64,000 nt of DNA. Source: an uncultured Selenomonadales bacterium (GTDB lineage Bacteria > Bacillota > Negativicutes > Selenomonadales > Selenomonadaceae). The stretch lies in assembly GCA_900321035.1 (NCBI GenBank), contig ONUH01000011.1, forward strand, positions 15,050 through 79,049, given 5' to 3'. The notes under the pieces were generated by a model. That model saw only the letters and a list, made by a program, of their open reading frames with translations, ran no database searches and had not been told where the DNA came from. Below are positions 15,176 to 49,803 of this stretch, one piece after another (positions within the stretch are counted from its first letter, which is position 1; each line of letters begins with the position of its first letter). Made by a program: the position numbers and the translations under genes.

Positions 15176-15273
15176 GATATACACCTCCACATAGTTTTCA
15201 TGCAAAAACACATTTTCTGTAGTACACTTGAGACAGTTGATTAACGGACAGTTCACGAAAGGCGGTGGAAACA

Positions 15274-15459
15274 ATGTTGATGGCTCTCGTCGGTGTTCCC
15301 CTCGTACTCCTTTTCGGGTGTTACTTCCTGTTCGCTCTGCTCGAAATCTTCGGCCCCATGGTGTTGGCAATGGGCCTCCTCCTAAAATGGACGTTCAGTG
15401 CCGTGTGCGCGTTGCTTTTCTACCCATTCCGCCTCAAAGAAACCTCAAGCCCCGCATGA
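15274..15459 (+). CDS. Small two-TM hydrophobic protein encoded opposite to all phage genes
   Basis: 61 aa (MLMALVGVPLVLLFGCYFLFALLEIFGPMVLAMGLLLKWTFSAVCALLFYPF...) in the terS/methylase gap. GGTGGA 5 nt upstream. Its stop codon lies in the loop of a plus-strand intrinsic terminator. Confidence 0.45.
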   Translation: MLMALVGVPLVLLFGCYFLFALLEIFGPMVLAMGLLLKWTFSAVCALLFYPFRLKETSSPA

Positions 15460-26997: not shown

Positions 26998-27519
26998 TCA
27001 ACGATATTTCTTTAGATTTTTCTTGAGTTTCTCCACCAGTTTTGACCACTGATACCGCAGCGATGACTTTGGCGTGTCCAAAAGCGCCGATGCCTCCCGC
27101 TCGGAAACCGCAGGCATCACCGCGCACATCCTGCGGCTGCGGTCGTCCAGCTGTTCCAGTTCGTGAAAGAGCGCATATAAGAGTTCCCTGTCGGCGACAA
27201 TGTCCTCCGGCAAGGGCGTATCGGCGGCAACAGTATCTGCCAATGAGATACTTGAATCATCCGATGCCGGGGCATCGAGGGACAGCGGCTCCTTCGGGGT
27301 GTAATAGCGGCAGTAATCGCAGTTACCGTCGCACTTCCAGAGCATCCTGCGGGGGCAGCGGCACTCGCCGCTCCGTTGCAGACGCTTGCGCTTGCGGCTG
27401 ATTTCCCGATTGAAGTTAAGGTAGAAGTCTTTGCTGACAGGAATGAGCGTCACCTTGTCGGCATCGTTCGCGTCGCGAACTGGGTAGAAGTATTGGCCTT
27501 GATTGACTTTGTTTGACAT
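26998..27519 (-). CDS. Sigma-70 region-4-like / Cys-rich early phage regulator
   Basis: From ATG 27519 (GGAGG upstream): a Cys cluster (CRCPRRMLWKCDGNCDYCRYY) and a C-terminal HTH-like SEREASALLDTPKSSLRYQWSKLVEKL. First gene of the minus-strand early array. Confidence 0.6.
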   Translation of the reverse strand: MSNKVNQGQYFYPVRDANDADKVTLIPVSKDFYLNFNREISRKRKRLQRSGECRCPRRMLWKCDGNCDYCRYYTPKEPLSLDAPASDDSSISLADTVAADTPLPEDIVADRELLYALFHELEQLDDRSRRMCAVMPAVSEREASALLDTPKSSLRYQWSKLVEKLKKNLKKYR

Positions 27520-27802
27520 AAAAACGGACCTCCGTCCAACAACCGCCGAATGGTTGAGGGACGGAGACCCGCTTGAAGTGCCAGCGGTTGTGCGGACGCA
27601 ATAATCCACCTAAGCGGGAGAGCAGACTCCCCGCCCCGGACTGCGCCTGCCGTTCGCTGGCTGGCTTCTCGATATTCAGTTGTGCCATCGCTTCTGCGGC
27701 GAACGGCCCCGATATGCGCGCTGGGGGTGCACTTTCACGATGGCGGGCGGTTTAGCGTCATGCCCGGGACGAGCATTAAAATCCTTTTTGCAAATTTCAA
27801 TT

Positions 27803-27831: not shown

Positions 27832-27907
27832 AAAGGCAACTAAAAAGTTGTATTTCGTGATTTTCATCCACAGTATACAAAACGACCTTGGTTGATTTGG
27901 GGACTGT

Positions 27908-29101
27908 TTGGGACATCATGGAACATCGTGGGACAAATTTCGTGAGGAGATGATTTCAACGGTGGACTTCAAGACATTGTTTCGGATTCTGAAAGACCAC
28001 CTCGCCGATGGAGCAGATAGCATCGTCTTCTTTCGTGATTTGATGGCCATTATGACTACCGTTCCTGCTGCTGAATGGGGGACAAAAAAAGACCCTTCAG
28101 TGAAGGGACGATTGACTGATGAAACGATTCGTAGCTATACCAAACGTGGACTGTCGAAAAAATTCGCCCACAATATTGTTTACAGGCTTACCCCGGAGCG
28201 ACTTGCAAAACGGATAAAGAAGATGCAAAAGACACCAAAGCTTTTGCTTGTCAAAGACATCTTGCCGTATGAGCCGTCTGTTAACGAAAACAATGTGGGT
28301 GAAGTGGTTGCCGATATGCTTGTGGGTATAATTCAGGCAGCGGCGGGAATAGTCCAACCCAACAAACTGGAGAGAGAACGACATTTGCTACAAGCCGCAG
28401 AACTCAAAAACAAATACGGCGAGTATTTATTGGAAGAAACAGAAAATTATTGCCATTTCCCCGGATGTGGAAGGCAACTCACCGTTTCGCAAAATGGAAA
28501 AATAGCATCTGCATACGAAGTTTGTCTGATAGACAAAAATAAACCGGCAACCGTAGACAATCTCATCGCTTTATGCCCGAAATGCCATGCCACTTATCTC
28601 CTCGACAATTCCAAACAGGCGGTCAAACCCTTGTCTGAGGTAAAAAAGATATTGGCTACACACAGGAAAAATCTTCAACTGCTGGATGAGGCTTCACTTG
28701 AAAAAGGACTCATTGGCGTTATTAGCTGCATAAAAAAGCTGAAGGAAACTGACTTGGGGGATCCCGCCTATGATCCCAAACAACTGCGTGAAAAAATAAA
28801 TCCGTCGGTTTATGTATCACTCTTCATCGCCGTCAACAATTATGTGACTATGTACTTCCGTCGCTTGAAAGAAATAATGGTAAGTTTGGACAAGCGGGGA
28901 GAAATTGATTTCGAGGAGATACAAAATCAGATGAAGTCCATTTACCGAAGACTGAACAAGGCCAACAAATCTAAAATGGATATATACCGTGAAATCACTG
29001 AGAAAATCCATCGGGTTACATTGCAGGACGACATTTATTGTCAGATCGTGGTTTCTTATTTCATACAAAGCTGTGAGGTATTCGATGCAACTGCCGAATA
29101 A
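27908..29101 (+). CDS. ABC-3C-type effector-like component: HNH-like zinc-finger domain + helical C-terminal domain
   Basis: 397 aa with a central CHFPGCGRQL...YEVCLIDKNKPATVDNLIALCPKCH. This has HNH topology, but the first catalytic His position reads YEVC. Helical C-terminal part ends ...VVSYFIQSCEVFD. Start uncertain (TTG 27908 or ATG 27950). Confidence 0.6.
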   Translation: MGHHGTSWDKFREEMISTVDFKTLFRILKDHLADGADSIVFFRDLMAIMTTVPAAEWGTKKDPSVKGRLTDETIRSYTKRGLSKKFAHNIVYRLTPERLAKRIKKMQKTPKLLLVKDILPYEPSVNENNVGEVVADMLVGIIQAAAGIVQPNKLERERHLLQAAELKNKYGEYLLEETENYCHFPGCGRQLTVSQNGKIASAYEVCLIDKNKPATVDNLIALCPKCHATYLLDNSKQAVKPLSEVKKILATHRKNLQLLDEASLEKGLIGVISCIKKLKETDLGDPAYDPKQLREKINPSVYVSLFIAVNNYVTMYFRRLKEIMVSLDKRGEIDFEEIQNQMKSIYRRLNKANKSKMDIYREITEKIHRVTLQDDIYCQIVVSYFIQSCEVFDATAE

Positions 29102-29315
29102 ACTATATTCTTTTCAGGAAAGTACGCTCTGTCTCATGCCAAAGGTAATGCGAGAGCTCGCCGATGGTTCTGTCTCGGTTAGGGAGCTTTACCAGAGAAT
29201 GGCTCCGTATCTATCAGAGCCAACGGATTTCCTGTCCGTCATGGATGCCTTGTACGCACTTGGGGCGGTGGATATAAATGAGGAAGAGGAGGTCTTTTCG
29301 TGCTTATCGAAATGA
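29085..29315 (+). CDS. ABC-3C-type middle component-like small protein
   Basis: 76 aa: MQLPNKLYSFQESTLCLMPKVMRELADGSVSVRELYQRMAPYLSEPTDFLSVMDALYALGAVDINEEEEVF. Overlaps both neighbours (17 and 16 nt). Confidence 0.55.
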   Translation: MQLPNKLYSFQESTLCLMPKVMRELADGSVSVRELYQRMAPYLSEPTDFLSVMDALYALGAVDINEEEEVFSCLSK

Positions 29316-30937
29316 TGTCTCCCGCATTTGTGGAGAAAGGAAATACCCGCCCGGCAATCAAATTCAAGCCAGGCCTGAATGTGGTACTCGGAAAGGAAGA
29401 CGGCGAAAACTCTATAGGAAAATCCTCGGCGCTTTTGGCTATAGATTTCGTTTTTGGTGGGGACACATACTTGGGGAGTGATGCGGTAAAGTATGTCGAC
29501 CATCATGATATTTTCTTTACTTTTGAATTTGCCGGAGAAAGATTTTATTTTTCCCGCAGCACGGAAGATGCAAACAAAATTCAAGTCTGCGATGAGATTT
29601 ACATCCCAACTGGTACTGTATGGAAAAAACAAGAATACGTGGAGTGGTTGAAAAGGATGTATGGTCTTGATTTTCCTGAACTTGCTTTCCGGAATACGAT
29701 AAGCCGTTTTTTTCGAATATACGGCAAGGATAATCTCGACGAGCGCAGGCCGCTTCGAGGCAATACCGGTGAGAATATGCAAAAATCCATTGGAGTGCTG
29801 GTGCGGCTATTTAACACATATCGAGACATTCAAGATTTTTCGATGCGCCTCGAAGAACAAGAAAAGAAGCTGAAAATATTTCGGGATGCACGACAGGAGC
29901 AATTCATTCCCCATCTTGTAGGCGGCAAAACGCAGTATGAGGACAATGTGGCGGTCATCGACAAGCTGACGGTTGAGCTTTTCAATCTTACGGACAGGCA
30001 AGCTGGCGGGGAAGAAAATATTAAAACGAGCCAAGAAAAAGCGCGCCTGAAATCCGAAAAACTCCAACTTGAAACCGCAATCCAAGCAAATGAGCGGAAA
30101 CTTGAACTTATCAACATGAACCTCAAATACGGATGCCCTCCGAAAGATTCAGAATTAAAGGCACTGCATGAATTTTTCCCAAATGTGAATTTGAAAAAAA
30201 TATACGAGGTTGAGCAGTATCACAAAAAATTGGCCATGATTCTTGACGGACAATTAAAGGGCGAAAAGACCGCCGCGCAGAATGCGATTGCCGATTTGAA
30301 AGCGAGACTCGCCGAAACAAAACAGGCACTTGATGATTTGGGGAGCAGCGGAACTCTATCCAAGGAATTTCTCGACCGACATTCATCCATCAAGAGCAAT
30401 ATCGATGCCCTCAAGCAACAAAACGAGGCCTACCTCACACTCGTCCGATTACAGGACGAGCGGAAGCAGGCCGATGATTTGCTAAAACAGAGGATACGGG
30501 GAATTTTGGATTATATCCAAGGGAGCATCAACAAAAAAATGAAGGGGTATAACGAGACGCTTTACGACGTTCCTCACAAGCCCCCTCATTTATTGCTAAA
30601 CGAATACAACAGTTACCAGTTTGAAACGCCTGCCGACACGGGAACTGGGTCGAACTATAAAGGCTTGGTGCTGTATGATTTAGCAGTCCTCTCTCTAACG
30701 GCGCTCCCTGCTATTGCGCATGATTCTTTGATTCTAAAAAATGTCAGCGACGGCTCTATTGATGGGATTATGAAAATCTACGAGCGCAGCAAAAAACAGA
30801 TTTTTATCGCTTTCGACAAGCAAAACGCCTATATGCCGGAAACCAGACGAATACTCAGGGAAAATATGGTGCTGAAATTGTCGGTTGACGGGAGCGAGCT
30901 TTACGGAAAAGCGTGGAACAAAGAGGAGAATCGCTAA
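29300..30937 (+). CDS. DUF2326-like SMC/Rad50-type ABC ATPase with long coiled coil
   Basis: GTG start 7 nt after GGAGG. Walker A GENSIGKS near the N-terminus, about 200 aa of K/E/L/Q-rich coiled coil, and a C-terminal TGTGSNYKGLVLYDL plus Walker-B-like AIAHDSLILKNV. Confidence 0.7.
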   Translation: MLIEMMSPAFVEKGNTRPAIKFKPGLNVVLGKEDGENSIGKSSALLAIDFVFGGDTYLGSDAVKYVDHHDIFFTFEFAGERFYFSRSTEDANKIQVCDEIYIPTGTVWKKQEYVEWLKRMYGLDFPELAFRNTISRFFRIYGKDNLDERRPLRGNTGENMQKSIGVLVRLFNTYRDIQDFSMRLEEQEKKLKIFRDARQEQFIPHLVGGKTQYEDNVAVIDKLTVELFNLTDRQAGGEENIKTSQEKARLKSEKLQLETAIQANERKLELINMNLKYGCPPKDSELKALHEFFPNVNLKKIYEVEQYHKKLAMILDGQLKGEKTAAQNAIADLKARLAETKQALDDLGSSGTLSKEFLDRHSSIKSNIDALKQQNEAYLTLVRLQDERKQADDLLKQRIRGILDYIQGSINKKMKGYNETLYDVPHKPPHLLLNEYNSYQFETPADTGTGSNYKGLVLYDLAVLSLTALPAIAHDSLILKNVSDGSIDGIMKIYERSKKQIFIAFDKQNAYMPETRRILRENMVLKLSVDGSELYGKAWNKEENR

Positions 30938-31167
30938 TGATGAGAATGAGCTATAACAGATTATGGAAACTGCTGATTGACAGAAACATGAAGAAAACCG
31001 ACTTAAGGAAGGCCGCCGGCATAAGTTCATCGTCTCTCGCCAAACTTGGCAAGAATGAAAATGTCACCACGGATGTGCTTCTAAGAATCTGCGAGTCGCT
31101 TCATGTAGAGCTTTCCGATATTGTGGAGTCGGTTCATGATGAGGAAGATGGCAGCAAGGATTCATAA
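30937..31167 (+). CDS. XRE-family helix-turn-helix protein
   Basis: 76 aa: LWKLLIDRNMKKTDLRKAAGISSSSLAKLGKNENVTTDVLLRICESL. Its ATG overlaps the ATPase stop (TAATG) and the gene ends 5 nt before hsdM. Confidence 0.75.
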   Translation: MMRMSYNRLWKLLIDRNMKKTDLRKAAGISSSSLAKLGKNENVTTDVLLRICESLHVELSDIVESVHDEEDGSKDS

Positions 31168-31172
31168 ACTGA

Positions 31173-32693
31173 ATGGAGGAAAATCAAGTGGCAAACAATA
31201 CGAGTGCCAACATCGGCTTTGAAAAACAAATATGGGATGCGGCCTGCGTCCTTTGGGGGCATATCCCGGCCGCGGACTATCGGAAGGTAATCGTGGGGCT
31301 TATCTTTCTCCGCTATATCGGGAGCGCATTCGAGAAACGCTACAACGAACTCGTTGCCGAGGGCGACGGTTTCGAGGATGACCCCGACGCCTACGAAGAA
31401 GACAACATTTTCTTTGTGCCGGAAGAAGCACGGTGGAAAACCATAGCTGCGGCAGCGCACACGCCGGAAATCGGCACGGTGATCGACGATGCCATGCGGG
31501 CGATTGAGGCTGACAACAAAAAGCTGAAGAATGTGCTGCCGAAGAATTACGCGAGCCCAGACCTCGACAAACGGGTTCTTGGTGATGTAGTGGATCTCTT
31601 CACAAATATGGACATGAGCGACACAGAAGAAAACAAAGACCTCCTCGGCAGGACATATGAATACTGCATCGCCCAGTTTGCGGCCTACGAGGGAGTGAAA
31701 GGCGGCGAGTTTTACACGCCAGCCAGCGTGGTCAAAACTATCGTCGCCGTACTGCGTCCCTTTGAGAATTGCCGGGTATATGACCCCTGCTGTGGAAGCG
31801 GAGGTATGTTCGTACAAAGTGCGAAATTTATTCAGGCGCACAGCGGCAGACGCGGCTCAATTTCCGTTTACGGGCAGGAATCCAATGCGGACACGTGGAA
31901 GATGGCAAAGATGAATCTTGCCATTCGCGGGATTGACGCCGACTTGGGAGCATATCAAGCCGATACCTTTTTCAATGACCTGCATCCTACGCTCAAAGCG
32001 GATTTCATCATGGCGAATCCCCCCTTCAATCTTTCGGGCTGGGGGCAGGACAAGCTCAAGGAGGATAGGCGCTGGAAATACGGTGTGCCTCCGGCGGGAA
32101 ACGCCAACTATGCATGGATTCAGCACATGATCCATCATCTCGCGCCCAACGGGAAGATCGGCCTCGTGCTGGCGAACGGCGCGCTCTCCACCCAATCCAG
32201 CGGCGAGGGAGAAATCCGGAAGCGTATCATTGAGGATGACCTTGTGGAAGGCATCATCGCCATGCCTACACAGCTTTTCTACAGCGTGACCATTCCCGTA
32301 ACGCTCTGGTTCATATCAAAGAACAAGAAGCAGAAGGGAAAGACGCTGTTCATTGACGCCCGCAAAATGGGGTATATGGTGGACAGGAAGCACCGGGACT
32401 TCACGGACGAGGATATTGACAAACTTTCCAATACATTCGCCGAGTTCCAAAACGGCAGTCTCGAAGATGTCAAGGGATTCTACGCCGTAGCCGATCTTGC
32501 GACGATTGCCAAGCAGGATTACATTCTGACGCCGGGGCGTTATGTGGGCATTGAGGAGCAGGAGGACGACGGCGAGCCGTTCGACGAAAAAATGAAACGG
32601 CTCACAGGGGAGCTTTCCGGGCTGTTCGCCAAGTCCCACGAGTTGGAAGACAAGATACGCAAGAATTTAGGGGCGATTGGGTATGAGATTTGA
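31173..32693 (+). CDS. hsdM: Type I restriction-modification system, methyltransferase subunit
   Basis: N-terminal HsdM helical domain (IGFEKQIWDAACVLWG), motif I (VYDPCCGSGGMF) and NPPF (ANPPFNLSGWG). The start may be GTG 31188, which is 8 nt after GGAGG. Confidence 0.92.
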   Translation: MEENQVANNTSANIGFEKQIWDAACVLWGHIPAADYRKVIVGLIFLRYIGSAFEKRYNELVAEGDGFEDDPDAYEEDNIFFVPEEARWKTIAAAAHTPEIGTVIDDAMRAIEADNKKLKNVLPKNYASPDLDKRVLGDVVDLFTNMDMSDTEENKDLLGRTYEYCIAQFAAYEGVKGGEFYTPASVVKTIVAVLRPFENCRVYDPCCGSGGMFVQSAKFIQAHSGRRGSISVYGQESNADTWKMAKMNLAIRGIDADLGAYQADTFFNDLHPTLKADFIMANPPFNLSGWGQDKLKEDRRWKYGVPPAGNANYAWIQHMIHHLAPNGKIGLVLANGALSTQSSGEGEIRKRIIEDDLVEGIIAMPTQLFYSVTIPVTLWFISKNKKQKGKTLFIDARKMGYMVDRKHRDFTDEDIDKLSNTFAEFQNGSLEDVKGFYAVADLATIAKQDYILTPGRYVGIEEQEDDGEPFDEKMKRLTGELSGLFAKSHELEDKIRKNLGAIGYEI

Positions 32694-33876
32694 AGTTAAG
32701 TCGCTAAAAGAACTATCAATTCATCACAAGGGAACATACGGAATTGCTGCATCTGCTGTGCCGTATTCTACAGATTTATACACATATTTACGGATTACCG
32801 ACATAAACGATGATGGAACAATAAATAAAGATGGGCTTATGTCAGTGGCAAATGAGCGAGCCTCTGAATACTTACTTCATCCTAATGACATTGTATTTGC
32901 TCGTACAGGAGCAAGTACAGGTCGAAACTATTTTTATGATGGCACTGACGGAGAATTTGTATATGCAGGATTCTTGATAAAATTCAGTATTGACCCATCG
33001 TTAGTTAATCCCTATTTCGTGAAATATCATTGCCTATCTGATAATTATCATAGTTGGATACAATCATTTAACACGGGCAGTACGAGGGGAAACATTAATG
33101 CACAAACCCTTGGAAATATGCCTATAAAGCTTCCGCCGCGCGAGCAACAAGATAAAATGGTTGAGATACTTTCTTCTCTTGATGAAAAAATTAAAGCCAA
33201 TGTTGCGATAAACAAGAATTTAGAGGAGCAAGCACAGGCAATTTACAACGAGATGTTTGTCAACCAAGATGCTGCCTTACGCAGAATTTGCCGTGCTGAT
33301 GAGTATTTCGATATTGGTATCGGAAAAACTCCACCTCGTAAAGAACATCAATGGTTTTCAAATAATCCATCTGATGTAACTTGGGTATCTATTGCTGATA
33401 TGGGGAACTGTGGCACATATATTAGCAGAAGTTCTGAATATCTGACTCGAAATGCTGTCGATAAATTCAGCATAAAAATTATACCCGACAATACAGTTAT
33501 TTTGAGTTTTAAGCTAACAGTAGGTCGGATTGCCATAACACATGGCGATATGGTCACCAATGAGGCTATTGCGCATTTTAAGACTAACAAACTACAGATA
33601 AATGAATATCTTTACTGTTATTTGAAAGATTTTAACTACCAATCACTGGGGAGTACATCTTCAATAGCAACTGCTGTTAATTCAAAAATAATTAAATCTA
33701 TGCCCTTCGTAGTTCCTGATGACGCTGAACTCTCGCAATTTCATGTCACAGTAAATCCTATGTTCAAACGAATTCTCAATAATCAAATTGAAAATGATAC
33801 GCTATGTGATATTCGCGACACACTTCTCCCTCGCCTCATGTCCGGCGAAATCGATGTGTCGAACATCGAACTCTAA
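32677..33876 (+). CDS. hsdS: Type I restriction-modification system, specificity subunit
   Basis: 399 aa with two target-recognition halves separated by a conserved helix (EQQDKMVEILSSLDEKI; C-terminal LRDTLLPRLMSGEIDV). Overlaps the hsdM end. Very AT-rich. ATG 32683 is an alternative start. Confidence 0.9.
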   Translation: MGMRFEVKSLKELSIHHKGTYGIAASAVPYSTDLYTYLRITDINDDGTINKDGLMSVANERASEYLLHPNDIVFARTGASTGRNYFYDGTDGEFVYAGFLIKFSIDPSLVNPYFVKYHCLSDNYHSWIQSFNTGSTRGNINAQTLGNMPIKLPPREQQDKMVEILSSLDEKIKANVAINKNLEEQAQAIYNEMFVNQDAALRRICRADEYFDIGIGKTPPRKEHQWFSNNPSDVTWVSIADMGNCGTYISRSSEYLTRNAVDKFSIKIIPDNTVILSFKLTVGRIAITHGDMVTNEAIAHFKTNKLQINEYLYCYLKDFNYQSLGSTSSIATAVNSKIIKSMPFVVPDDAELSQFHVTVNPMFKRILNNQIENDTLCDIRDTLLPRLMSGEIDVSNIEL

Positions 33877-33925
33877 GCCGCTAAATTCTTGTTTATCGCC
33901 ATCACATTGAAGGGAGTGAAACCTC

Positions 33926-36900
33926 TTGGCAAACACATATACAGAAGCCGACTATGAGCAATCCGTCATGGAACTCTTTGGCGGCATGGACTATGAAATC
34001 GTCTATGGTCCCGATGTTGAGCGCAACATCAAAAGCCCGCTCTATGATGAGGTGTTGGAAGATTATATTCGCCGCTTGAATCCCGATTTGCCCTCGGAGG
34101 CGATTACCGACGCCCTTTTCAAACTGCGCAACTTTGAGAACGGCGAACTCGTCCAGCGCAACGTGGTATTCATGGACTATCTGCAAAACGGCGTTCCCGT
34201 GCGCTATCACGAAAGGGGGGAGGAACGCTCCTCTATCGCGTATTTGGTGGATTATGCAACCCCTGACAACAACTCCTTCATTGCTGCCAATCAATGGACT
34301 TTTGTGGAGAACAGCCAAAAACGCCCGGACGTGGTTCTGTTTCTGAACGGTCTGCCCATCGTCATTATCGAGCTGAAATCTCCCTCCCGCGAGGAAACCG
34401 ATGCCAGCGAGGCGTTTTTGCAGCTTCGCAACTATATGCAGGAAATCCCCTCCATGTTCATCTATAACGCCATCTGCGTCATGAGCGACATGATGACGTC
34501 CAAGGCGGGAACAATCACCTCCGGCGAGGATCGCTTCATGGAGTGGAAAACGAAGGACGGCAGCTACGAAAATACCCAGTACGCCCAGTTCGATACCTTC
34601 TTTGAGGGAATTTTTACCAAGGAGCGTCTTCTTGACATTATCAAAAACTTTATCTGCTTTTCTAACGAGGGCTTGGCGCAGTACAAAATCCTCGCTGGGT
34701 ATCACCAGTATTTCGCCGTCAAAAAGGCCGTGGTATCCACGGCGCACGCCACGGAAACGGACGGCAAAGGCGGCGTGTTTTGGCATACGCAGGGCAGCGG
34801 CAAATCTCTCTCGATGGTCTTTTATGTCCATGCGCTCCAATCTGCCTTGAACAGCCCCACTATTGTTGTCCTGACGGACAGGAACGACCTCGACGACCAG
34901 CTTTACGGGCAATTCGCCAAATGCAAGGACTTTTTGCGCCAAGAGCCGATCCATGCCGAAAACCGCGATCATCTCAAAAAACTTCTCGATGGGCGCAAAG
35001 CCAATGGCATCATCTTTACCACCATGCAAAAGTTCGAGGAATCGGACGAGCCGCTTTCCGAGCGGCGAAATATCGTTGTCATGGCCGACGAGGCGCATCG
35101 CTCACAGTATGGCTTGACCGAGAAAATCAAGCTGACCCGTAACGAGGCCGGGGAAGAAGTCGCGAAGCGTGTTGTGGGGACGGCGCGCATCATTCGGAAC
35201 AGTCTCCCCAACGCTACATATATCGGTTTCACCGGGACGCCCATATCTTCCAAGGACAGGAGCACCCGCGAAGTTTTCGGCGACTATATCGACATTTACG
35301 ATATGACGCAGGCCGTGGAGGACGGCGCGACGCGCCCCGTGTACTATGAGAGCCGCGTCATCAAGCTGAAATTGGACGAGGCTACGCTGAAACTCATTGA
35401 CGACGAATACGACCTCATGGCGCAAAACGCCGACCCTGCCACCATCGAAAAGAGCAAGAAGGAACTGGGAAAAATGGAGGCGGTGCTCGGGAACGACAAA
35501 ACCATAAATTCCCTTGTGTCCGATATTCTCGACCACTACGAAAACTACCGCGCCAATCTTCTGACGGGCAAGGCAATGATTGTGGCATATTCCCGTGCCA
35601 TCGCCATGAAGATTTATCATCGGATTTTGGAACTGCGCCCCGGCTGGACGGAGAAAGTTGCCGTGGTCATGACCGAGAGCAACAAAGACCCGGAGGAATG
35701 GCGAAAGTATATCGGCAACAAGCATCACCGGGACGAGCTGGCCACGATATTCAAGGACAATGACAGCCCGCTGAAAATTGCCATCGTGGTGGATATGTGG
35801 CTGACGGGCTTTGATGTGCCGTCGATGGCGACCATGTATGTGTACAAGCCCATGAGCGGGCATAACCTCATGCAGGCCATCGCCCGCGTCAATCGTGTCT
35901 GGCGTGATAAGGAAGGCGGCCTCGTGGTCGATTATGTAGGCATCGCCGCCGCCTTGAAGCAAGCCATGAACGATTACACCGTCCGGGACAAGAAAAACTA
36001 CGGCGATACCGACATTGCCAAGGTTGCCTATCCCAAATTCCTCGAAAAGCTGTCGATTTGCCGGGATATGTTCCACGGTTACGATTACGCAAAGTTTGCG
36101 ACGGGCACGGACTTGGAGCGGGCAAAAACCATCACGGGAGCCGTCAACTTCATCGTTGGCCGGGAAAAGGACAAGGAGAAAGACACCTTCATCAAAGAGG
36201 CGCTGCTTCTTCATCAGGCGCTGTCCCTTTGCTCGTCCATTGCGCCGGAAGATGAACGGTTCGAAGCGGCTTTCTTCGAGGCTGTGCGTGTCCTCGTCCT
36301 GCGCCTCACCCACGGCGGCGAAGGACACAAAATTTCCCTGCCGGAGATGAACCAGCGCATTAACGAGCTTTTGAAGCAAAGCGTCAAAAGCGACGGGGTA
36401 ATCAACCTATTCTCCGATGTGGAGCGGGAATTTTCCCTGTTCGATCCGAAGTTCCTCGAGGAAATCTCGAAAATGAAAGAAAAGAACCTTGCCGTGGAGC
36501 TTTTGAAAAAGCTCATCGCCGAGCAGGTGCAGATTTATCGCCGTACCAATGTGGTCAAGTCCGAAAAATTCAGCGAGATAATCCAACGGGCAATGAACGC
36601 TTACCTGAACGGAATGCTCACCAATGAACAGGTTATTGAGGAACTTTTGACTCTCGCAAAACAAATCTCCGAGGCGCAACAGGAAGGAGAGCAGCTCGGG
36701 CTTACGGCGGATGAACTGGCTTTCTATGACGCCTTGACGAAACCGCAAGCTATCAAGGACTTCTACGAGAATGAAGAACTGATTGCCATCACCAAGGAAC
36801 TGGCGGACACGCTCCGTCGCAATCGCACGATAGACTGGCAGAAACGCTCCAGCGCACGGGCAAAAATGCGGATGCTTATAAAAAAGCTCCTCAAAAAGCA

Positions 36901-36985
36901 CAAATACCCGCCGGAAGGCATGGAAGATGCCGTGCAGACCGTTATGACCCAATGCGAGCTGTGGACAGACAATCAAGATATGTAG
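33926..36985 (+). CDS. hsdR: Type I restriction enzyme, endonuclease/translocase subunit
   Basis: 1019 aa with an N-terminal nuclease region (RPDVVLFLNGLPIVIIELK), helicase motif I (HTQGSGKS) and motif II (VMADEAHRSQ), and a C-terminal helical domain. TTG start. Confidence 0.92.
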   Translation: MANTYTEADYEQSVMELFGGMDYEIVYGPDVERNIKSPLYDEVLEDYIRRLNPDLPSEAITDALFKLRNFENGELVQRNVVFMDYLQNGVPVRYHERGEERSSIAYLVDYATPDNNSFIAANQWTFVENSQKRPDVVLFLNGLPIVIIELKSPSREETDASEAFLQLRNYMQEIPSMFIYNAICVMSDMMTSKAGTITSGEDRFMEWKTKDGSYENTQYAQFDTFFEGIFTKERLLDIIKNFICFSNEGLAQYKILAGYHQYFAVKKAVVSTAHATETDGKGGVFWHTQGSGKSLSMVFYVHALQSALNSPTIVVLTDRNDLDDQLYGQFAKCKDFLRQEPIHAENRDHLKKLLDGRKANGIIFTTMQKFEESDEPLSERRNIVVMADEAHRSQYGLTEKIKLTRNEAGEEVAKRVVGTARIIRNSLPNATYIGFTGTPISSKDRSTREVFGDYIDIYDMTQAVEDGATRPVYYESRVIKLKLDEATLKLIDDEYDLMAQNADPATIEKSKKELGKMEAVLGNDKTINSLVSDILDHYENYRANLLTGKAMIVAYSRAIAMKIYHRILELRPGWTEKVAVVMTESNKDPEEWRKYIGNKHHRDELATIFKDNDSPLKIAIVVDMWLTGFDVPSMATMYVYKPMSGHNLMQAIARVNRVWRDKEGGLVVDYVGIAAALKQAMNDYTVRDKKNYGDTDIAKVAYPKFLEKLSICRDMFHGYDYAKFATGTDLERAKTITGAVNFIVGREKDKEKDTFIKEALLLHQALSLCSSIAPEDERFEAAFFEAVRVLVLRLTHGGEGHKISLPEMNQRINELLKQSVKSDGVINLFSDVEREFSLFDPKFLEEISKMKEKNLAVELLKKLIAEQVQIYRRTNVVKSEKFSEIIQRAMNAYLNGMLTNEQVIEELLTLAKQISEAQQEGEQLGLTADELAFYDALTKPQAIKDFYENEELIAITKELADTLRRNRTIDWQKRSSARAKMRMLIKKLLKKHKYPPEGMEDAVQTVMTQCELWTDNQDM

Positions 36986-37218: not shown

Positions 37219-38730
37219 ATGACTACACCATCTTTCATCGCCATCGACCTAAAATCCTTTTACGCTTCGGTGGAGTGCGTGGAACGCGGCCTTGACCCGC
37301 TCACGACGAACCTCGTCGTGGCCGATGAGAGCCGCTCCACGAAGACCATCTGCCTCGCCGCCACCCCTTCTCTCAAAGCCTACGGCATACCGGGCAGGGC
37401 GCGGCTTTTTGAGGTGGTGCAAAAAACGAAGGAAGCAAACCAGCAGCGCAAGGCGAAAGCGCCGAGGCACATTCTGACGGGAGAATCCTGCGACGCCAGG
37501 GAACTCGCAACGAATCCCGCCCTCGCAATCTCCTATATCGTCGCCAAGCCCCGCATGGCGCTCTATTTGAAATACAGCACCCGCATCTACGGCATATACT
37601 TGAAATATATAGCCCCCGAGGACATACACGTCTACTCGATAGACGAGGTGTTCATGGATGTGACGCCATATCTCGCTACATACCATCTATCAGCTCACGA
37701 TCTTGCGATGAAGATGATCCGGGAGGTGCTTCGAGAAACAGGCATCACCGCCACGGCGGGCATCGGCACAAACCTTTATCTCGCGAAAATCGCGATGGAC
37801 ATCGTGGCGAAGAAAATGCCAGCCGACAAGGACGGCGTCCGCATCGCCGAGCTGGACGAGATGAGTTACCGACGGCAGCTTTGGTCGCACAGGCCGCTGA
37901 CGGACTTCTGGCGCGTGGGCAAAGGCTATGTAAAGAAACTCGAAGCTCACGGCCTGCACACGATGGGCGATATTGCCCGCTGCTCCCTCGGCAAACGGGG
38001 CGAATATCACAGCGAGGCCCTGCTCTATAAGCTTTTCGGCGTGAACGCGGAACTGCTCATCGACCATGCCTGGGGCTGGGAGCCATGCCCGATGTCGGCA
38101 ATCAAGAGCTACACGCCGTCATCTAACAGTCTCGGCTCCGGGCAGGTGCTGCAGCAGCCGTATTCCCATGAAAAGGGGCGGCTCATCGTCTGGGAAATGA
38201 CCGACCTCCTCGTCCTCGACCTTGTGGCGAAAGGACTGGTCACCGATCAGATGGTGCTGCGCGTCGGTTACGATATAGAGAATATAGAAAAGGGCTACAC
38301 CGGCGGCGTCCACGTTGATCACTATGGCCGGTCTGTCCCCAAACCCGCACACGGCTCTGTAAATCTCGGGAAATACACCTCGTCCTCGAAGCTGATCCTC
38401 GCGGCGGTGGTCGACCTCTACGAGCGCATCACCGATGCGAATCTCTCCGTCCGCCGCGTCACCGTCACGGCAAACCACGTTGTTGCCGAGAAAAGCCTCC
38501 CGAAGCCGGAGGACAAAGCGGAGCAGCTTGACCTGTTCACAGACTACGAATCTATAGAACAGGAACGGGCGCGGGCTGAGAAAGAAGAAAAGAAGGAGAA
38601 AGCCCTCCAGCATGCCATGATCGCCATCAAGGAGAAATTCGGCAAGAACGCGATCCTCAAAGGGACGAACCTCGAACAGGGCGCAATGACTATCGAGCGC
38701 AACCAGCAAGTCGGAGGCCATCATGAATGA
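37219..38730 (+). CDS. Y-family (DinB/UmuC-type) translesion DNA polymerase, copy 1
   Basis: FIAIDLKSFYASVECVERGLDP...SIDEVFMDVT...ATAGIGTNLYLAKIAMD are the standard Y-family palm/finger motifs. Translationally coupled (ATGA) to the YolD-like gene. Confidence 0.9.
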   Translation: MTTPSFIAIDLKSFYASVECVERGLDPLTTNLVVADESRSTKTICLAATPSLKAYGIPGRARLFEVVQKTKEANQQRKAKAPRHILTGESCDARELATNPALAISYIVAKPRMALYLKYSTRIYGIYLKYIAPEDIHVYSIDEVFMDVTPYLATYHLSAHDLAMKMIREVLRETGITATAGIGTNLYLAKIAMDIVAKKMPADKDGVRIAELDEMSYRRQLWSHRPLTDFWRVGKGYVKKLEAHGLHTMGDIARCSLGKRGEYHSEALLYKLFGVNAELLIDHAWGWEPCPMSAIKSYTPSSNSLGSGQVLQQPYSHEKGRLIVWEMTDLLVLDLVAKGLVTDQMVLRVGYDIENIEKGYTGGVHVDHYGRSVPKPAHGSVNLGKYTSSSKLILAAVVDLYERITDANLSVRRVTVTANHVVAEKSLPKPEDKAEQLDLFTDYESIEQERARAEKEEKKEKALQHAMIAIKEKFGKNAILKGTNLEQGAMTIERNQQVGGHHE

Positions 38731-40609: not shown

Positions 40610-40900
40610 TTGAAGAAAGCAGATTTCATCAAGGCCGTCGCAAAACAGGCTGGCACGTCACAGAAAGAGGCGGATGCATTCCTCACGGCAGCTCTCGGAG
40701 CAATCAAAGATGCTCTGAAGAAGGACGATTCGGTAGCGTTCCTCAAGTTCGGCACCTTCAAGATCTCGAAGCGCTCCGCTCGCAAGGGCCGCAACCCGCA
40801 GACGGGCAAACCGATCCAGATTCCCGCCGCGAAGGTCCCGGTCTTCAAGGCAAGTGCTGCATTCAAAGAACTCGTCAACGGAAAGAAAAAGAAGAAATAA
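40610..40900 (+). CDS. hup: HU-family DNA-binding protein
   Basis: From TTG 40610 (AGAGGGG upstream): KKADFIKAVAKQAGTSQKEADAFL...FGTFKISKRSARKGRNPQTGKPIQIPAAKVPVFKAS is canonical HU/IHF. Unusual Lys-rich tail. Confidence 0.85.
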   Translation: MKKADFIKAVAKQAGTSQKEADAFLTAALGAIKDALKKDDSVAFLKFGTFKISKRSARKGRNPQTGKPIQIPAAKVPVFKASAAFKELVNGKKKKK

Positions 40901-40983
40901 GCGGAATGAAACAGGCGCCTACCTGACGGTGGGCGCTTTTCTTATGCATAGGCACTCATGCGTATTGCTTTGGAGGTTTCCCC

Positions 40984-41012
40984 TTGACATTTTAGAACAT
41001 ATAATCTATTAT
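40984..41012 (+). promoter_or_regulatory. Candidate promoter of Y-family polymerase copy 2
   Basis: TTGACA (40984-40989), 17-nt spacer, TATTAT (41007-41012), 42 nt upstream of ATG 41055. Confidence 0.5.
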
Positions 41013-41054
41013 TCTATACAAACACATTTTCGGTTATGCAGGGGGGTGTCAGCG

Positions 41055-42560
41055 ATGGCCGAAGCTAAACGTGCCTGTATTGCAATCGACCTCAAGTCGT
41101 ACTATGCCTCCGTAGAGTGTGTGGAACGCGGCCTTGATCCGCTGGATACGAACCTTGTTGTTGCTGACGAAAGCCGTTCCACGGGCACGATCTGTCTCGC
41201 CGTCTCTCCCCCGCTCAAAGCGCAGGGCGTTCCCGGACGTCCCCGACTCTTCGAGGTCATCCAAAAGGTACGGGAAATCAACAGCGCGCGGAAATACCAC
41301 GTACCAGGAAGAAAACTCGTCGGAGAGTCTATAAGCGACGCCAAGTTGAAAGCCAACCCTGCGCTGGCGCTCTCTTACATCACCGCCATGCCACGCATGG
41401 GACTCTATATCAAGTACAGCAGCCGCATCTACCAGATATATCTCCGTTTCGTGGCCCCGGAGGACATCGTCGTGTACAGTATCGACGAGGTTTTCATCGA
41501 AGCGACGCCTTATCTCAAGACCTACCGCATGACAGCGCATGAACTGGCGATGGAAATGGTACGAGCGGTATTGCGCGAAACAGGCATCACGGCCACCGCA
41601 GGGATCGGCACGAACCTCTACCTCGCCAAGGTTGCGATGGATATCGTGGCGAAGAAGATGCCTGCCGACAAGGACGGCGTTCGCATCGCCGAGCTTGATG
41701 AATCCGCTTACCAGCAAAAGCTATGGAGCCATGTCCCGCTGACTGACTTCTGGCGTATCGGTCCCGGTACGGCAGCAAGGCTCGAAAAGCACAACATGTT
41801 CACGATGGGCGACATAGCCCGCTGCTCGATAGGGAAATCCTCTGACTACTGGAACGAGAATCTTCTCTATAAGCTCTTCGGCGTAAATGCCGAGCTTCTG
41901 ATAGACCATGCGTGGGGCTGGGAGCCTTGCACGATTGCGGACATCAAAGCATATAAGCCGCAATCAAAAAGTCTTTCTTCCGGGCAAGTCCTCCCGAAAC
42001 CTTATCCCTTCGCCAAAGCGCGGCTCATTGTTTGGGAAATGACCGACCTCTTGGCACTTGACCTTGTGGCAAAAGAACTTCTGACGGATCAGATGGTGCT
42101 GTATATAGGTTATGATCGTGAACTCCCGAAAGGCGGGGCTCCCTACTATACAGGACTGTTATCGGTCGATCGCCACGGACGCGTGAGGCTAACACCCGCG
42201 CACGGTTCTATCAACCTTGGGCAGCCGACTTCCTCTGCGAAGAAAATCCAATCGGCTGTGCTCGAACTCTTTGACCGCATTGTCAATCCCCATCTCCTTG
42301 TCCGCCGCGTCAACATCTGTGCGAACCATGTGACCACGGAGGCCCAAGAACGGGAACGGCCACAATCTTTCGACCTGTTCGCGGACATGGATGAGCAGGC
42401 ACAGGCTATGGAGCAGGAGCGACGGGAACGTTCCATCCAAAGAGCCATCCTGGATATCCGCCATAAGTATGGAAAGAACGCTTTGCTCAAAGGCAGTAAT
42501 TTTGAAGAAGACGCGATGACGCGGGAACGCAACCAGCAGATCGGAGGTCATCGAGCATGA
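41055..42560 (+). CDS. Y-family translesion DNA polymerase, copy 2
   Basis: Paralogue of 37219-38730 with long identical blocks, e.g. LRETGITATAGIGTNLYLAK and DIVAKKMPADKDGVRIAELDE. Start at MAEAKRACIAIDLKSYYASVECV. Confidence 0.9.
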   Translation: MAEAKRACIAIDLKSYYASVECVERGLDPLDTNLVVADESRSTGTICLAVSPPLKAQGVPGRPRLFEVIQKVREINSARKYHVPGRKLVGESISDAKLKANPALALSYITAMPRMGLYIKYSSRIYQIYLRFVAPEDIVVYSIDEVFIEATPYLKTYRMTAHELAMEMVRAVLRETGITATAGIGTNLYLAKVAMDIVAKKMPADKDGVRIAELDESAYQQKLWSHVPLTDFWRIGPGTAARLEKHNMFTMGDIARCSIGKSSDYWNENLLYKLFGVNAELLIDHAWGWEPCTIADIKAYKPQSKSLSSGQVLPKPYPFAKARLIVWEMTDLLALDLVAKELLTDQMVLYIGYDRELPKGGAPYYTGLLSVDRHGRVRLTPAHGSINLGQPTSSAKKIQSAVLELFDRIVNPHLLVRRVNICANHVTTEAQERERPQSFDLFADMDEQAQAMEQERRERSIQRAILDIRHKYGKNALLKGSNFEEDAMTRERNQQIGGHRA

Positions 42561-48750: not shown

Positions 48751-49038
48751 GTGATACGTGAGATGGAACCGAACCGATACTGGCTTTTGTATTTCGGCTT
48801 GCTGTTTGTTTTCTTGGGCAGTAAGGTCGGGCAAGCGCTCTGCTTGTGGACATACAACATTTTGCGCGCCTGTTTTTATGCCACGTTGGCGCTGGCTGCT
48901 GCAGCGCTCGCCAAACTTTTGTGGGAAGTAAGTTTCTTGCTCTTAAAATTCGCAAACGCGCTCATAAAGGAACAAGAGAACCATACTTCGGCCAGAGCTG
49001 GGGAAACAACTGAAAACGCCCCGAGAGAAAGCGACTAA
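48751..49038 (+). CDS. Small membrane protein, hypothetical
   Basis: Two hydrophobic helices. GTG or ATG (48763) start. Followed by a strong hairpin. Confidence 0.4.
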   Translation: MIREMEPNRYWLLYFGLLFVFLGSKVGQALCLWTYNILRACFYATLALAAAALAKLLWEVSFLLLKFANALIKEQENHTSARAGETTENAPRESD

Positions 49039-49046
49039 AACAAGAC

Positions 49047-49097
49047 AAAGAAACTCCCCCATGACGGCATGTAAACGCCCCATGGGGGAGTTTCTTT
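49047..49097. terminator. Bidirectional terminator hairpin
   Basis: Perfect 17-bp stem AAAGAAACTCCCCCATG / CATGGGGGAGTTTCTTT, with A/T runs built into both ends, between convergent genes. Confidence 0.65.
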
Positions 49098-49317
49098 GTG
49101 AGCGGACTCCCAGCTACCGAGCCAGGAAAGCATCCAATAATATGCTCGATTCGTTATATTATCACTGTTCTCGAATCGAACCAATTCGTAGTGTGCTCCA
49201 TCGTGAGAATAATCTTGTTTTACTATTCTCTTTCTTATGGCATATAGCGCACTCCCAGCTTTTCATCTTTTCCCAGATACTCAAGAAGAGCTTTGCAGAT
49301 AACACATTCATCTTTCA

Positions 49318-49767: not shown

Positions 49768-49803
49768 AACTATTTACTCCTTGTTTTAACCTGGATTCCC
49801 AGA

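What the first reader, a model, noticed from the sequence alone, without database searches (positions are those of the whole stretch)
27908..31167. Three-gene HNH-like / small protein / SMC-like ABC ATPase cassette (ABC-three-component type), translationally coupled to an HTH gene and a type I R-M operon
Seen in sequence:
- A 397-aa protein has an HNH-topology zinc finger (CHFPGC...CPKCH). The position of the first catalytic His reads YEVC. A long helical C-terminal domain follows.
- A 76-aa acidic protein overlaps both neighbours, by 17 and 16 nt.
- A 545-aa protein has Walker A GENSIGKS, about 200 aa of coiled coil, and a C-terminal DSLILKNV Walker-B-like segment (DUF2326-like).
- The ATPase stop overlaps the ATG of an XRE HTH gene (TAATG).

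Established knowledge: this effector / middle component / ABC ATPase layout matches the computationally defined ABC-3C conflict systems. I know of no experimental characterisation. The ATPase-plus-HNH logic parallels Septu (PtuA/PtuB).

Inference: this is a phage-defence or abortive-infection module carried at a prophage edge. The non-canonical HNH suggests either a sensor/DNA-binding role or an unusual active site.
Basis: partly seen in the sequence, partly recalled or inferred. Interest (0 to 1): 0.85.

Follow-up and report, generated by a model that had tools for sequence, protein, structure and literature searches.

The report
Prophage Lamassu cassette with dead HNH
This is a real, well-conserved phage-borne member of the known Lamassu (ABC-3C) anti-phage family. 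Its "HNH nuclease" part has lost the catalytic residues, and it always travels with a small regulator gene, so it is a modest twist on a known system rather than a new kind.

Summary
The first gene most likely starts at GTG 27962 (379 aa), not TTG 27908 (397 aa). The supposed extra N-terminus is a conserved non-coding leader.

Pfam places the three proteins in ABC-3C families: CTD11, MC7 and DUF2326. ABC-3C is the same thing as type II ("short") Lamassu, which has been tested experimentally and solved by cryo-EM. The ATPase model matches LmuB structures best. Its Walker A (Gx4GKS) and deviant Walker B (AIAHDS) fit short LmuB.

- **Degenerate HNH.** The domain keeps its four zinc cysteines, but the general-base His and metal-ligand positions are unconserved in 73 family representatives. 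It is probably a pseudo-nuclease.
- **A fourth gene.** The XRE-type HTH_26 gene is present in nearly every locus long enough to show it, among 56 genome loci plus phage records.
- **A conserved leader.** Every locus with upstream sequence has a leader with three heptamers (TGGKDCA) spaced exactly 10 bp apart.

The cassette sits at the edge of a Ca. Heliusvirales-like prophage. It diverges from the replication genes and is followed by a variable restriction-modification slot, type I here.

Verdict: a new variant of a known kind, of moderate interest. Defence function and effector output are inferred, not shown.

The parts
27873..27881 (+). Conserved -10-like box TATACAAAA (family consensus A.TATA.AAAAtgg), about 25-37 nt upstream of the repeats. 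Probable promoter of the cassette.
   Evidence: Consensus of 42 distinct upstream regions. Sequences shown. Also present in phage records. Promoter function is inferred.
27909..27935 (+). Three direct heptamer repeats, TGGGACA / TGGAACA / TGGGACA, at exact 10-bp spacing in the leader. Family consensus TGG(T/G)DCA. Probable operator or leader RNA site; the binding partner is unknown.
   Evidence: 2 overlapping matches in the window against 0.05 expected. Present at -49 to -60 (-91 in one locus, L052) from the start codon in every locus with upstream sequence. Positions 4-5 are identical in all three repeats in 27 of 42 loci, against about 3.6 expected. No other cluster in the loci. No Rfam match.
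27962..29101 (+). LmuA-like effector component. Most likely 379 aa from GTG 27962, with RBS GAGGAG at 27944-27949. The 397-aa reading starts at TTG 27908.
   Evidence: Pfam CTD11. 416 homologues. Start position. PHROG 6948 matched over full length. dN/dS 0.16.
27962..28357 (+). Helical N-terminal domain (aa 19-150) of unknown function. Only hydrophobic positions are conserved across the family.
   Evidence: High-confidence helices in the model. Match to the N-terminal part of PADLOC LmuA model PDLC03857, 9.5e-9. Conservation profile. No structural match in PDB or BFVD.
28358..28627 (+). HNH-fold zinc-ribbon domain (aa 151-240) that lacks the His-Me catalytic residues.
   Evidence: Best fold matches are McrA, CBASS Cap5 and Cas9 HNH. 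McrA alignment. The four Cys are 90-100% conserved. Position 206 is V/T/I/A/C/S among its six commonest residues (68 of 73 sequences), with no His among them. Position 227 is mostly Ala. dN/dS 0.07.
28682..29083 (+). CTD11, the C-terminal docking domain of ABC-3C/Lamassu effector proteins (aa 259-392).
   Evidence: Pfam PF20277, 8.7e-35, covering profile positions 5-138 of 138.
29085..29315 (+). LmuC-like middle component (MC7), 76 aa and acidic. Overlaps both neighbouring genes.
   Evidence: Pfam PF20292, 2e-23. PHROG 6259. Collinear in nearly all loci.
29300..30937 (+). LmuB-like SMC/Rad50-type ABC ATPase (DUF2326), 545 aa. Walker A at 29402-29425 (G35-S42). Deviant Walker B at 30707-30727 (PAIAHDS). 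No CxxC zinc hook. Conserved YGLYPT motif in the middle of the coiled-coil region.
   Evidence: Pfam DUF2326. PADLOC LmuB and PDC-M68B. Invariant motifs. Foldseek top matches are YydD-YydB, LmuAB-DNA 9ux7 and Salmonella LmuACB 9hqu.
30937..31167 (+). XRE-family HTH_26 protein, 76 aa. Its ATG overlaps the ATPase stop codon (TAATG). Conserved fourth gene of the cassette.
   Evidence: Pfam HTH_26, 6.5e-18. Present directly after the ATPase in nearly all loci at 54-92% identity (62-80% in most), and in phage Javan422. Helix SSSSLAKL is almost invariant.
31173..36985 (+). Type I restriction-modification genes hsdM (31173-32693), hsdS (32677-33876) and hsdR (33926-36985). They occupy the variable cargo slot that follows the HTH gene.
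   Evidence: Pfam families on the identical contig. In other loci the slot holds other R-M or defence genes.

Best explanation
This is a prophage-carried short (type II) Lamassu / ABC-3C system of the CTD11-MC7-DUF2326 subfamily. It is extended by a conserved XRE-type regulator and is probably transcribed from one regulated promoter together with a swappable restriction-modification cargo.

**Inferred mechanism, by analogy with solved Lamassu complexes.** A dimer of the SMC-like ATPase, together with the small middle protein, holds one copy of the effector protein inactive through its CTD11 domain. DNA ends or abnormal replication intermediates of an invading phage or plasmid are sensed by the ATPase head and the middle protein. 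Slow ATP turnover (Walker B is D-S, not D-E) releases the effector, which then self-associates and acts.

**Where this subfamily differs.** The effector head is an HNH-fold zinc domain with no general-base histidine and no conserved metal ligands, joined to a helical domain with no conserved polar residues. The output is therefore more likely DNA binding or blocking than classic HNH cleavage. The three 10-bp-spaced heptamers in the leader probably let a DNA-binding component of the element control expression of the cassette.

**Status of each step.** Domain identities, motifs, synteny and selection are shown. Complex formation, the trigger, the output and the regulation are inferred.
For: - **Family assignment.** Pfam CTD11, MC7 and DUF2326 all score above their curated cut-offs. 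PADLOC gives LmuA, LmuB and PDC-M68 matches.
- **ATPase fold.** The ATPase model's best PDB matches are YydD-YydB (7e-14), LmuAB-DNA 9ux7 (1.3e-9) and Salmonella LmuACB 9hqu (4.6e-8).
- **ATPase motifs.** Walker A Gx4GKS and Walker B hhhhDS are invariant. They match the short-Lamassu motifs described in bioRxiv 10.1101/2025.04.02.646746.
- **ABC-3C equals type II Lamassu.** Stated.
- **Known Lamassu mechanism.** Effector sequestration, DNA-end sensing and effector tetramerisation are described.
- **Synteny.** The four genes are collinear in nearly all of 56 genome loci and in phage records.
- **Selection.** All four genes, and the HNH-like domain on its own, are under purifying selection.
- **HNH state.** The fold matches HNH nucleases, but the catalytic positions are unconserved.
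- **Context.** Prophage-edge position and variable R-M cargo.
- **Leader.** Conserved leader repeats.
Against: - No functional test exists for this subfamily. I found no report of one in the library searches I ran.
- Profile searches against PDB sequences did not reach LmuB, so the link to it is structural only.
- The CTD11 part of the effector model is low confidence and gave no match to solved LmuA C-terminal domains.
- The middle protein is only 76 aa, about half the size of the Vibrio LmuC.
- A family-wide loss of catalytic residues is unexpected for an abortive-infection effector. An unrecognised active site cannot be excluded.
- The fixed position next to the phage early region would also fit a role in the phage's own regulation.
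Confidence: 0.6

Rival explanations
1. It is a conventional Lamassu-HNH abortive-infection system. Once released, the effector degrades DNA using an unorthodox active site built from residues other than the classic His and metal ligands, for example the conserved E177, D209, N218, Y203 and Y230.
For: HNH is listed among the effector types of short Lamassu. The fold matches active HNH nucleases. The zinc site and the structural Asn are conserved, and the domain is under strong purifying selection, dN/dS 0.07. In this window copy the last His (H227, in CPKCH) is retained.
Against: In 73 representatives, none of the six commonest residues at the general-base position (68 of the 73 sequences) is His. 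The residue after the second CxxC is Ala in 33, and His in only 12. In the McrA alignment D209 lines up with McrA's Pro in VIPLS, not with its His-His pair. From my own knowledge, that is not a catalytic position. I also know of no His-Me finger nuclease that works without the general-base histidine.
Confidence: 0.22
2. The cassette is mainly a sensor-regulator of the phage element rather than a killer. The SMC-like complex senses DNA ends or replication stress and releases a DNA-binding, catalytically dead effector. Alone or with the HTH protein, this acts on the leader repeats or the divergent early promoter region. That would control the R-M cargo, superinfection immunity or prophage induction.
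For: The cassette lies on the opposite strand from the early/replication genes in about half the loci, and next to a sigma-region-4-like gene in several. No separate repressor gene is seen in the 350-bp intergenic region. The cassette is the constant part of the region and the downstream cargo is the variable part. The effector lacks catalytic residues. The leader carries regularly spaced repeats whose variable positions change together within a locus. A clade of short Lamassu that seemingly lost its effector domain is already described.
Against: I found no protein whose sequence tracks the repeat variant. The HTH recognition helix is almost invariant across repeat types. The repeats occur only in the cassette's own leader. 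Every characterised relative is a defence system. The neighbours are mostly defence genes, which fits a defence hotspot.
Confidence: 0.13
3. It is a Septu-like two-component system (PtuA ATPase plus PtuB HNH nuclease), and the small ORF between the two genes is incidental.
Against: PADLOC gave no PtuA or PtuB match at E up to 1, but did give LmuA, LmuB and PDC-M68 matches. The small ORF is a significant MC7 match and is conserved in nearly all loci. The HNH-fold protein carries an ABC-3C CTD11 domain. The ATPase has a long coiled-coil insert and matches LmuB structures best.
Confidence: 0.02
4. It is an inactive relic carried passively by the prophage.
For: The catalytic residues of the HNH domain are missing. 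In close relatives the downstream R-M is decayed to an HsdM_N fragment next to a transposase HTH gene.
Against: All four ORFs are intact in dozens of species. Walker motifs and zinc ligands are invariant. dN/dS is 0.09-0.21.
Confidence: 0.03

Closest known systems
Short (type II) Lamassu / DdmABC of Vibrio cholerae and LmuACB of Salmonella enterica (ABC-3C systems)
   Same: Gene order is effector, small middle gene, then SMC-like ATPase, with overlapping ORFs. The effector has a C-terminal ABC-3C docking domain. The ATPase has Walker A Gx4GKS, a deviant Walker B hhhhD[QSTE] and a coiled-coil insert. The ATPase model matches LmuB structures.
   Different: These systems use a Cap4 nuclease head with CTD7 and MC3 domains. 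Here the domains are CTD11 and MC7, and the head is an HNH fold without catalytic residues. The middle protein is 76 aa, about half the size of the Vibrio LmuC. A conserved HTH_26 gene and a repeat-bearing leader are added. No function has been tested for this subfamily.
Bacillus subtilis YydD-YydB (DUF2326 ATPase with its partner protein)
   Same: This is the best structural match of the ATPase, Foldseek E 7e-14 over about 610 aligned columns. From my own knowledge, YydD also belongs to DUF2326; I did not check this here.
   Different: From my own knowledge, YydB is a phosphoesterase-type protein, not an HNH-fold protein. The PDB entry is an integrative model, not an experimental structure.
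'Clade O' short Lamassu that seemingly lost the LmuA effector domain (bioRxiv 10.1101/2025.04.02.646746)
   Same: A short Lamassu with intact LmuB and LmuC but no evident enzymatic effector.
   Different: Here the head domains are kept and are under purifying selection. They simply lack catalytic residues. I could not test whether this family is clade O, the paper's 'HNH' clade, or neither.
PADLOC candidate system PDC-M68 (untested)
   Same: Component A matches effector residues 173-393 (E 1.4e-4). Component B matches the ATPase (E 1.4e-13).
   Different: The matches are weak. LmuA and LmuB models match about as well or better: the LmuA model scores better than PDC-M68A on the effector, and the LmuB model only slightly worse than PDC-M68B on the ATPase. 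The PDC entries are predicted candidates that have not been validated.
HNH / His-Me finger nucleases (EcoKMcrA, CBASS Cap5, Cas9 HNH domain)
   Same: Beta-beta-alpha fold with a four-cysteine zinc site and the structural Asn.
   Different: The general-base His and the metal-ligand positions are not conserved in the family.
Septu (PtuA/PtuB)
   Same: An ABC ATPase paired with an HNH-fold protein.
   Different: No profile match to either component. Septu has no middle component, CTD domain or long coiled coil.

Membership tests
Lamassu type II / ABC-3C | SMC/Rad50-like ABC ATPase (LmuB) with Walker A Gx4GK[ST] | tested here: met
   G35-x4-G40-K41-S42. K41 and S42 are invariant, and G35 and G40 are invariant or nearly so, in two alignments. 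Motif definition taken.
Lamassu type II / ABC-3C | Short-type Walker B hhhhD[Q/S/T/E] | tested here: met
   A471-I-A-H-D475-S476, with H474, D475 and S476 invariant. Motif definition taken.
Lamassu type II / ABC-3C | ATPase head split by a coiled-coil insert; overall fold like solved LmuB | tested here: met
   Model shows N- and C-terminal head halves separated by helices at about 178-421. Foldseek hits include LmuAB-DNA 9ux7_A at 1.3e-9 and LmuACB 9hqu_A at 4.6e-8, with YydD first at 7e-14. Caveats: mean pLDDT is 67, and sequence profiles did not reach LmuB.
Lamassu type II / ABC-3C | Small middle component (LmuC/MC) encoded between the effector and the ATPase | tested here: met
   Pfam MC7, 2e-23, covering 68 of 69 profile positions. 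Conserved position in nearly all loci.
Lamassu type II / ABC-3C | Effector protein with a C-terminal ABC-3C CTD docking domain | tested here: met
   Pfam CTD11, 8.7e-35. Also found in distant homologues.
Lamassu type II / ABC-3C | N-terminal enzymatic effector domain on LmuA | tested here: inconclusive
   The HNH fold is present, but the catalytic His and metal ligands are absent across the family. The N-terminal domain has no conserved polar residues. Effector-less clades are accepted within Lamassu.
Lamassu type II / ABC-3C | The three proteins form a complex (LmuA1:LmuB2:LmuC1) | not testable with these tools
Lamassu type II / ABC-3C | Protection against phage or plasmids that depends on the ATPase Walker A | not testable with these tools
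   Needs experiments. Only the genomic context supports it: prophage location with R-M and defence neighbours.
HNH / His-Me finger nuclease | Beta-beta-alpha-metal fold | tested here: met
   Model has strands at 192-222 and a helix at 224-232. Foldseek matches McrA, Cap5 (probability 0.99, rmsd 3.4 over 105 columns) and Cas9 HNH, but all with E above 0.1. Pfam HNH scores 0.0015, below its cut-off.
HNH / His-Me finger nuclease | General-base histidine at the end of strand 1 | tested here: not met
   The McrA His-His pair aligns with V205-C206. Position 206 is V/T/I/A/C/S among its six commonest residues (68 of 73 representatives), with no His among them.
HNH / His-Me finger nuclease | Metal-binding residues (Asp/His before the base; His/Asn in the helix) | tested here: not met
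   Position 205 is V or I. Position 227 is A in 33, H in 12, F in 10, Y in 6 and S in 6. The window copy itself has H227.
Septu (PtuA/PtuB) | Profile similarity to PtuA and PtuB | tested here: not met
   No PtuA or PtuB model appears in the PADLOC results at E up to 1.
R-M controller (C) protein, considered for the HTH gene | A small HTH gene tied to one particular R-M system | tested here: not met
   The HTH gene stays with the ATPase while the downstream genes change: type I, C5 methylase plus Eco29kI, type III-like helicases, DruA and others. C-box operator sites were not searched for.

The most novel reading that the evidence does not exclude
A Lamassu-derived SMC-like sensor whose released 'effector' is a catalytically dead, DNA-binding HNH-fold protein. 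In this reading the system works by binding or regulating DNA rather than destroying it. For example, it could couple detection of DNA ends or foreign replication to control of the prophage's early region, its R-M cargo or superinfection immunity, acting through the 10-bp-spaced leader repeats together with the conserved HTH protein.
Probability: 0.2. Interest if true: 0.75.

Novelty: new variant of a known kind. Interest (0 to 1): 0.45.

Why it matters
Lamassu systems are found in roughly a tenth to a seventh of prokaryotic genomes. In every characterised case their output is an enzyme that destroys a cellular target.

A widespread subfamily carried by gut prophages looks different. Its effector keeps the HNH fold and zinc site under strong selection but lacks every catalytic residue. 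If that holds, an SMC-like sensor would be shown to drive a non-destructive output, or a new active-site solution would be revealed.

The subfamily also offers a compact and easily cloned test case of about 3.3 kb. It has a built-in regulator and a defined cis element. It also marks a conserved slot where gut Clostridia phages swap restriction-modification cargo.

Tried and rejected
- **Binder of the leader repeats.** I looked for the protein that reads the repeats in three ways: mutual information between the repeat variant and every column of the four proteins, inspection of the HTH protein and the effector N-domain sorted by repeat type, and the same for the divergently encoded upstream proteins. 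No column stood out, and the HTH recognition helix is almost invariant. The binder remains unknown.
- **Extra copies of the heptamers.** Searched elsewhere in each locus; none were clustered.
- **Rfam search of the leader.** No match.
- **PDB sequence searches.** The single ATPase and effector sequences, and an ATPase profile, reached neither LmuB nor LmuA. Only fold comparison made the LmuB link.
- **Fold search of the effector.** Only weak HNH matches, and nothing for the N-terminal domain or CTD11.
- **Unusual architectures among remote hits.** These included NRPS and DUF2326 fusions. They look like chimeric or truncated predictions, not real variants.
- **Source paper for ABC-3C.** The paper that defined ABC-3C (Krishnan et al. 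2020) could not be read here. A broad term search was uninformative. The Lamassu paper had no supplementary files available as text.
- **Septu and relic readings.** Both rejected; see the rival explanations.

Full report
**1. Observation**

- The effector ORF is at 27908..29101.
- A 76-aa ORF at 29085..29315 overlaps its neighbours by 17 and 16 nt.
- A 545-aa ORF lies at 29300..30937.
- A 76-aa ORF has its ATG inside the TAATG at 30935-30939.
- hsdM, hsdS and hsdR follow at 31173..36985.

Each internal start has a GGAG-type ribosome-binding site 6-8 nt upstream. hsdM has a weaker AAGGA 12 nt upstream. No terminator-like site lies on the + strand between 27.5 and 31.4 kb. The cassette has 43-45% G+C, against 55-60% in the phage genes to its left.

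One correction is needed. The first gene most likely starts at GTG 27962, giving 379 aa, with GAGGAG at 27944-27949.
- Most homologues start at the equivalent residue.
- Gene callers on three of the four contigs that carry the identical ATPase called 379 aa.
- The upstream 'extension' falls in different frames and contains stop codons in other loci.

**2. Identity of the three proteins**

Pfam gives CTD11 of ABC-3C systems for residues 259-392 of the first protein (8.7e-35). It gives MC7 for the small protein (2e-23) and DUF2326 for the C-terminus of the ATPase (1.7e-15). The HNH match is only sub-threshold, at 0.0015.

PADLOC matches the N-terminal 140 residues of the first protein to an LmuA model (9.5e-9). 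It matches the ATPase to LmuB models and to the untested candidate PDC-M68B. No Septu model matched.

Published work states that ABC-3C is the same as type II Lamassu, and that the Vibrio effector and middle protein carry CTD7 and MC3. A verified lactococcal Lamassu is annotated with sister Pfam families. The family is no longer uncharacterised: cryo-EM structures and a mechanism exist, covering effector sequestration, DNA-end sensing and effector tetramerisation.

**3. The ATPase**

Two alignments show invariant Walker A residues within G35-x4-G40-K41-S42. They also show an invariant Walker B, A-I-A-H-D475-S476. These fit the motifs given for short Lamassu, Gx4GK[ST] and hhhhD[Q/S/T/E].

There is no CxxC hook. 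A conserved YGLYPT motif sits in the middle of the coiled-coil region.

Sequence and profile searches against PDB chains did not reach LmuB. An AlphaFold model (mean pLDDT 67) did. Its best Foldseek matches are the B. subtilis YydD-YydB model (7e-14), LmuAB-DNA 9ux7 (1.3e-9) and Salmonella LmuACB 9hqu (4.6e-8). SMC and Rad50 heads are interleaved with these and make up the rest of the list.

**4. The effector**

The model has mean pLDDT 71. It has four parts:
- a confident helical N-domain (21-145);
- a long helix (153-177);
- a beta-beta-alpha unit (192-232);
- a less confident helical C-terminal domain.

The only fold matches are weak ones to HNH nucleases: McrA, CBASS Cap5 (probability 0.99) and Cas9 HNH. 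BFVD gave the same picture.

In the alignment to McrA, its catalytic His-His pair falls on V205-C206. Its structural Asn falls on N218, and its CPNCH falls on CPKCH.

In 73 family representatives drawn from a search of 1.84 billion proteins:
- the four cysteines are 90-100% conserved, and N218 is 88% conserved;
- position 206 is V/T/I/A/C/S among its six commonest residues (68 of the 73), with no His among them;
- position 227 is Ala in 33 and His in only 12.

The N-domain conserves only hydrophobic positions. Against a 92%-identical relative, dN/dS is 0.07 for the HNH-like domain and 0.16 for the whole gene.

The domain is therefore maintained, but not as a classic His-Me nuclease. The head-plus-CTD11 architecture is constant. 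Apparent exceptions look like chimeric or truncated predictions.

**5. Conservation and context**

The effector has 416 detectable homologues. A scan of one genome per species returned 56 loci, almost all from Clostridia and other Bacillota.

In nearly all of them the effector, MC7, ATPase and an HTH_26 gene are collinear and tightly packed. In most loci the HTH protein is the best conserved of the four, at 62-80% identity against roughly 46-66% for the others. The same four genes occur in Streptococcus phage Javan422 at 38% effector identity. The small MC7 gene is not annotated in that record.

About half of the loci have the same divergent neighbours as the window: a sigma-region-4-like gene, a DUF2800 nuclease, an Enc34-type ssDNA-binding protein, DNA polymerase A and a primase.

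In the window, positions 1 to 27.6 kb encode capsid, portal, terminase, methyltransferases, an SNF2 helicase, a D5-type primase and PolA, all on the minus strand. From about 44 kb the genes are ordinary host genes. The cassette therefore lies at the edge of a prophage.

The prophage's marker genes match those of Ca. Heliusvirales gut phages. One such phage, NatCom_28274, carries the cassette at its genome end. All three core proteins have their own PHROG families of unknown function.

**6. The cargo slot**

The genes after the HTH gene differ from locus to locus. They include C5 methylases (13 of 72 ORFs scanned), Eco29kI, NgoBV, LlaJI, type I systems, type III-like helicases, Z1 with an HATPase domain, and DruA (example). 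The type I system in the window is thus one cargo among many. The HTH gene belongs to the constant cassette, not to the R-M system.

**7. The leader**

Every locus with upstream sequence carries a -10-like box (A.TATA.AAAA) followed by a TGGGGAT.GTT block. Three heptamers then follow at exact 10-bp spacing, 49-60 nt before the start codon in all loci but one. L050 has four heptamers.

In the window the heptamers are TGGGACA, TGGAACA and TGGGACA at 27909-27935. That gives two overlapping pattern matches, against 0.05 expected.

Positions 4-5 of the heptamer vary between loci (TA, TT, TG, GA, GT). They are identical in all three repeats in 27 of 42 distinct loci. About 3.6 would be expected if the repeats varied independently. 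The spacers between repeats are not homogenised in the same way.

The element is also present in Javan422 and, in looser form, in NatCom_28274. It occurs nowhere else in the loci and matches no Rfam family.

I could not identify what binds it. That it regulates the cassette is an inference.

**8. Interpretation**

Membership in the Lamassu/ABC-3C family is well supported, at about 0.9. A defence role is likely from family and context but is untested.

The mechanism I favour follows the solved Lamassu complexes. The ATPase dimer and middle protein sequester the effector through CTD11. DNA ends or replication intermediates trigger its release.

The difference is that the released head probably binds or blocks DNA rather than cutting it. 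The main rival is an unorthodox nuclease site. A smaller possibility is that the module acts as a sensor-regulator for the phage itself.

A short-Lamassu clade without an effector domain, and an 'HNH' effector class, are both already in the literature. I could not determine which of these, if either, corresponds to this family.

**9. Verdict**

This is a catalogued family with a known general mechanism. Three subfamily features appear not to have been described, to my knowledge: a family-wide pseudo-HNH head, an obligatory HTH_26 fourth gene, and a conserved repeat-bearing leader. A fixed prophage position in front of a swappable R-M slot adds to these. I score interest at 0.45.

Noticed in passing
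window 27873-27935 (and the same position in L001-L069): Conserved leader with a -10-like box and three heptamers at exact 10-bp spacing. The variable positions of the heptamer change together within a locus. The binding partner is unknown.
   Followed up: partly
window 31173-36985; L005 11252-13052; L010, L029, L040 and others downstream of the HTH gene: The region after the HTH gene is a swap site for different R-M and defence genes: type I, C5 methylase plus Eco29kI, NgoBV, LlaJI, type III-like helicases, Z1/HATPase and DruA. The four-gene cassette in front of it stays constant.
   Followed up: partly
window 1-27609: The left part of the window is a siphovirus-type prophage with the marker set of Ca. 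Heliusvirales: TerL, portal, capsid, PolA, Enc34 ssDNA-binding protein, DUF2800 nuclease and helicase. No integrase or tRNA gene was found in the window; only part of it was scanned for protein families.
   Followed up: partly
window 12163-15370 (minus strand): The phage carries two DNA methyltransferase genes of its own: a 643-aa C5 cytosine methylase and a 485-aa ParB_N-N6_N4 methylase. They probably protect it against host restriction.
   Followed up: no
window 37219-38730 and 40854-42560: Two Y-family (ImpB/MucB/DinB-type) polymerase genes lie just right of hsdR. Between them are a LUD-domain gene, a DUF5714 gene and an HU-like gene. It is unclear whether they belong to the prophage or the host, so the right prophage boundary is undefined.
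   Followed up: no
window 26998-27609 (minus strand): The 203-aa protein encoded divergently from the cassette has no Pfam match here but matches PHROG 13787. Proteins at the same position in other loci carry sigma-70 region 4 (ECF-like) domains. It may be an early phage regulator.
   Followed up: partly
L068 (Streptococcus phage Javan422) 7125-7349: The MC7 middle-component gene is present but is not annotated in the GenBank record. The predicted prophage record ends right at the HTH gene.
   Followed up: yes
L001-L004 13287-13965: In the 92%-identical relatives (one from a Schwartzia MAG), the type I R-M is reduced to a 100-aa HsdM_N fragment followed by a transposase HTH gene. The cargo has decayed while the cassette remains intact.
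   Followed up: no
window 33001-34000 and 49001-50000: Two local G+C minima, 0.38 over hsdS and 0.43 near 49-50 kb, stand out from the 0.55-0.60 background. The second lies among host genes and was not examined.
   Followed up: no
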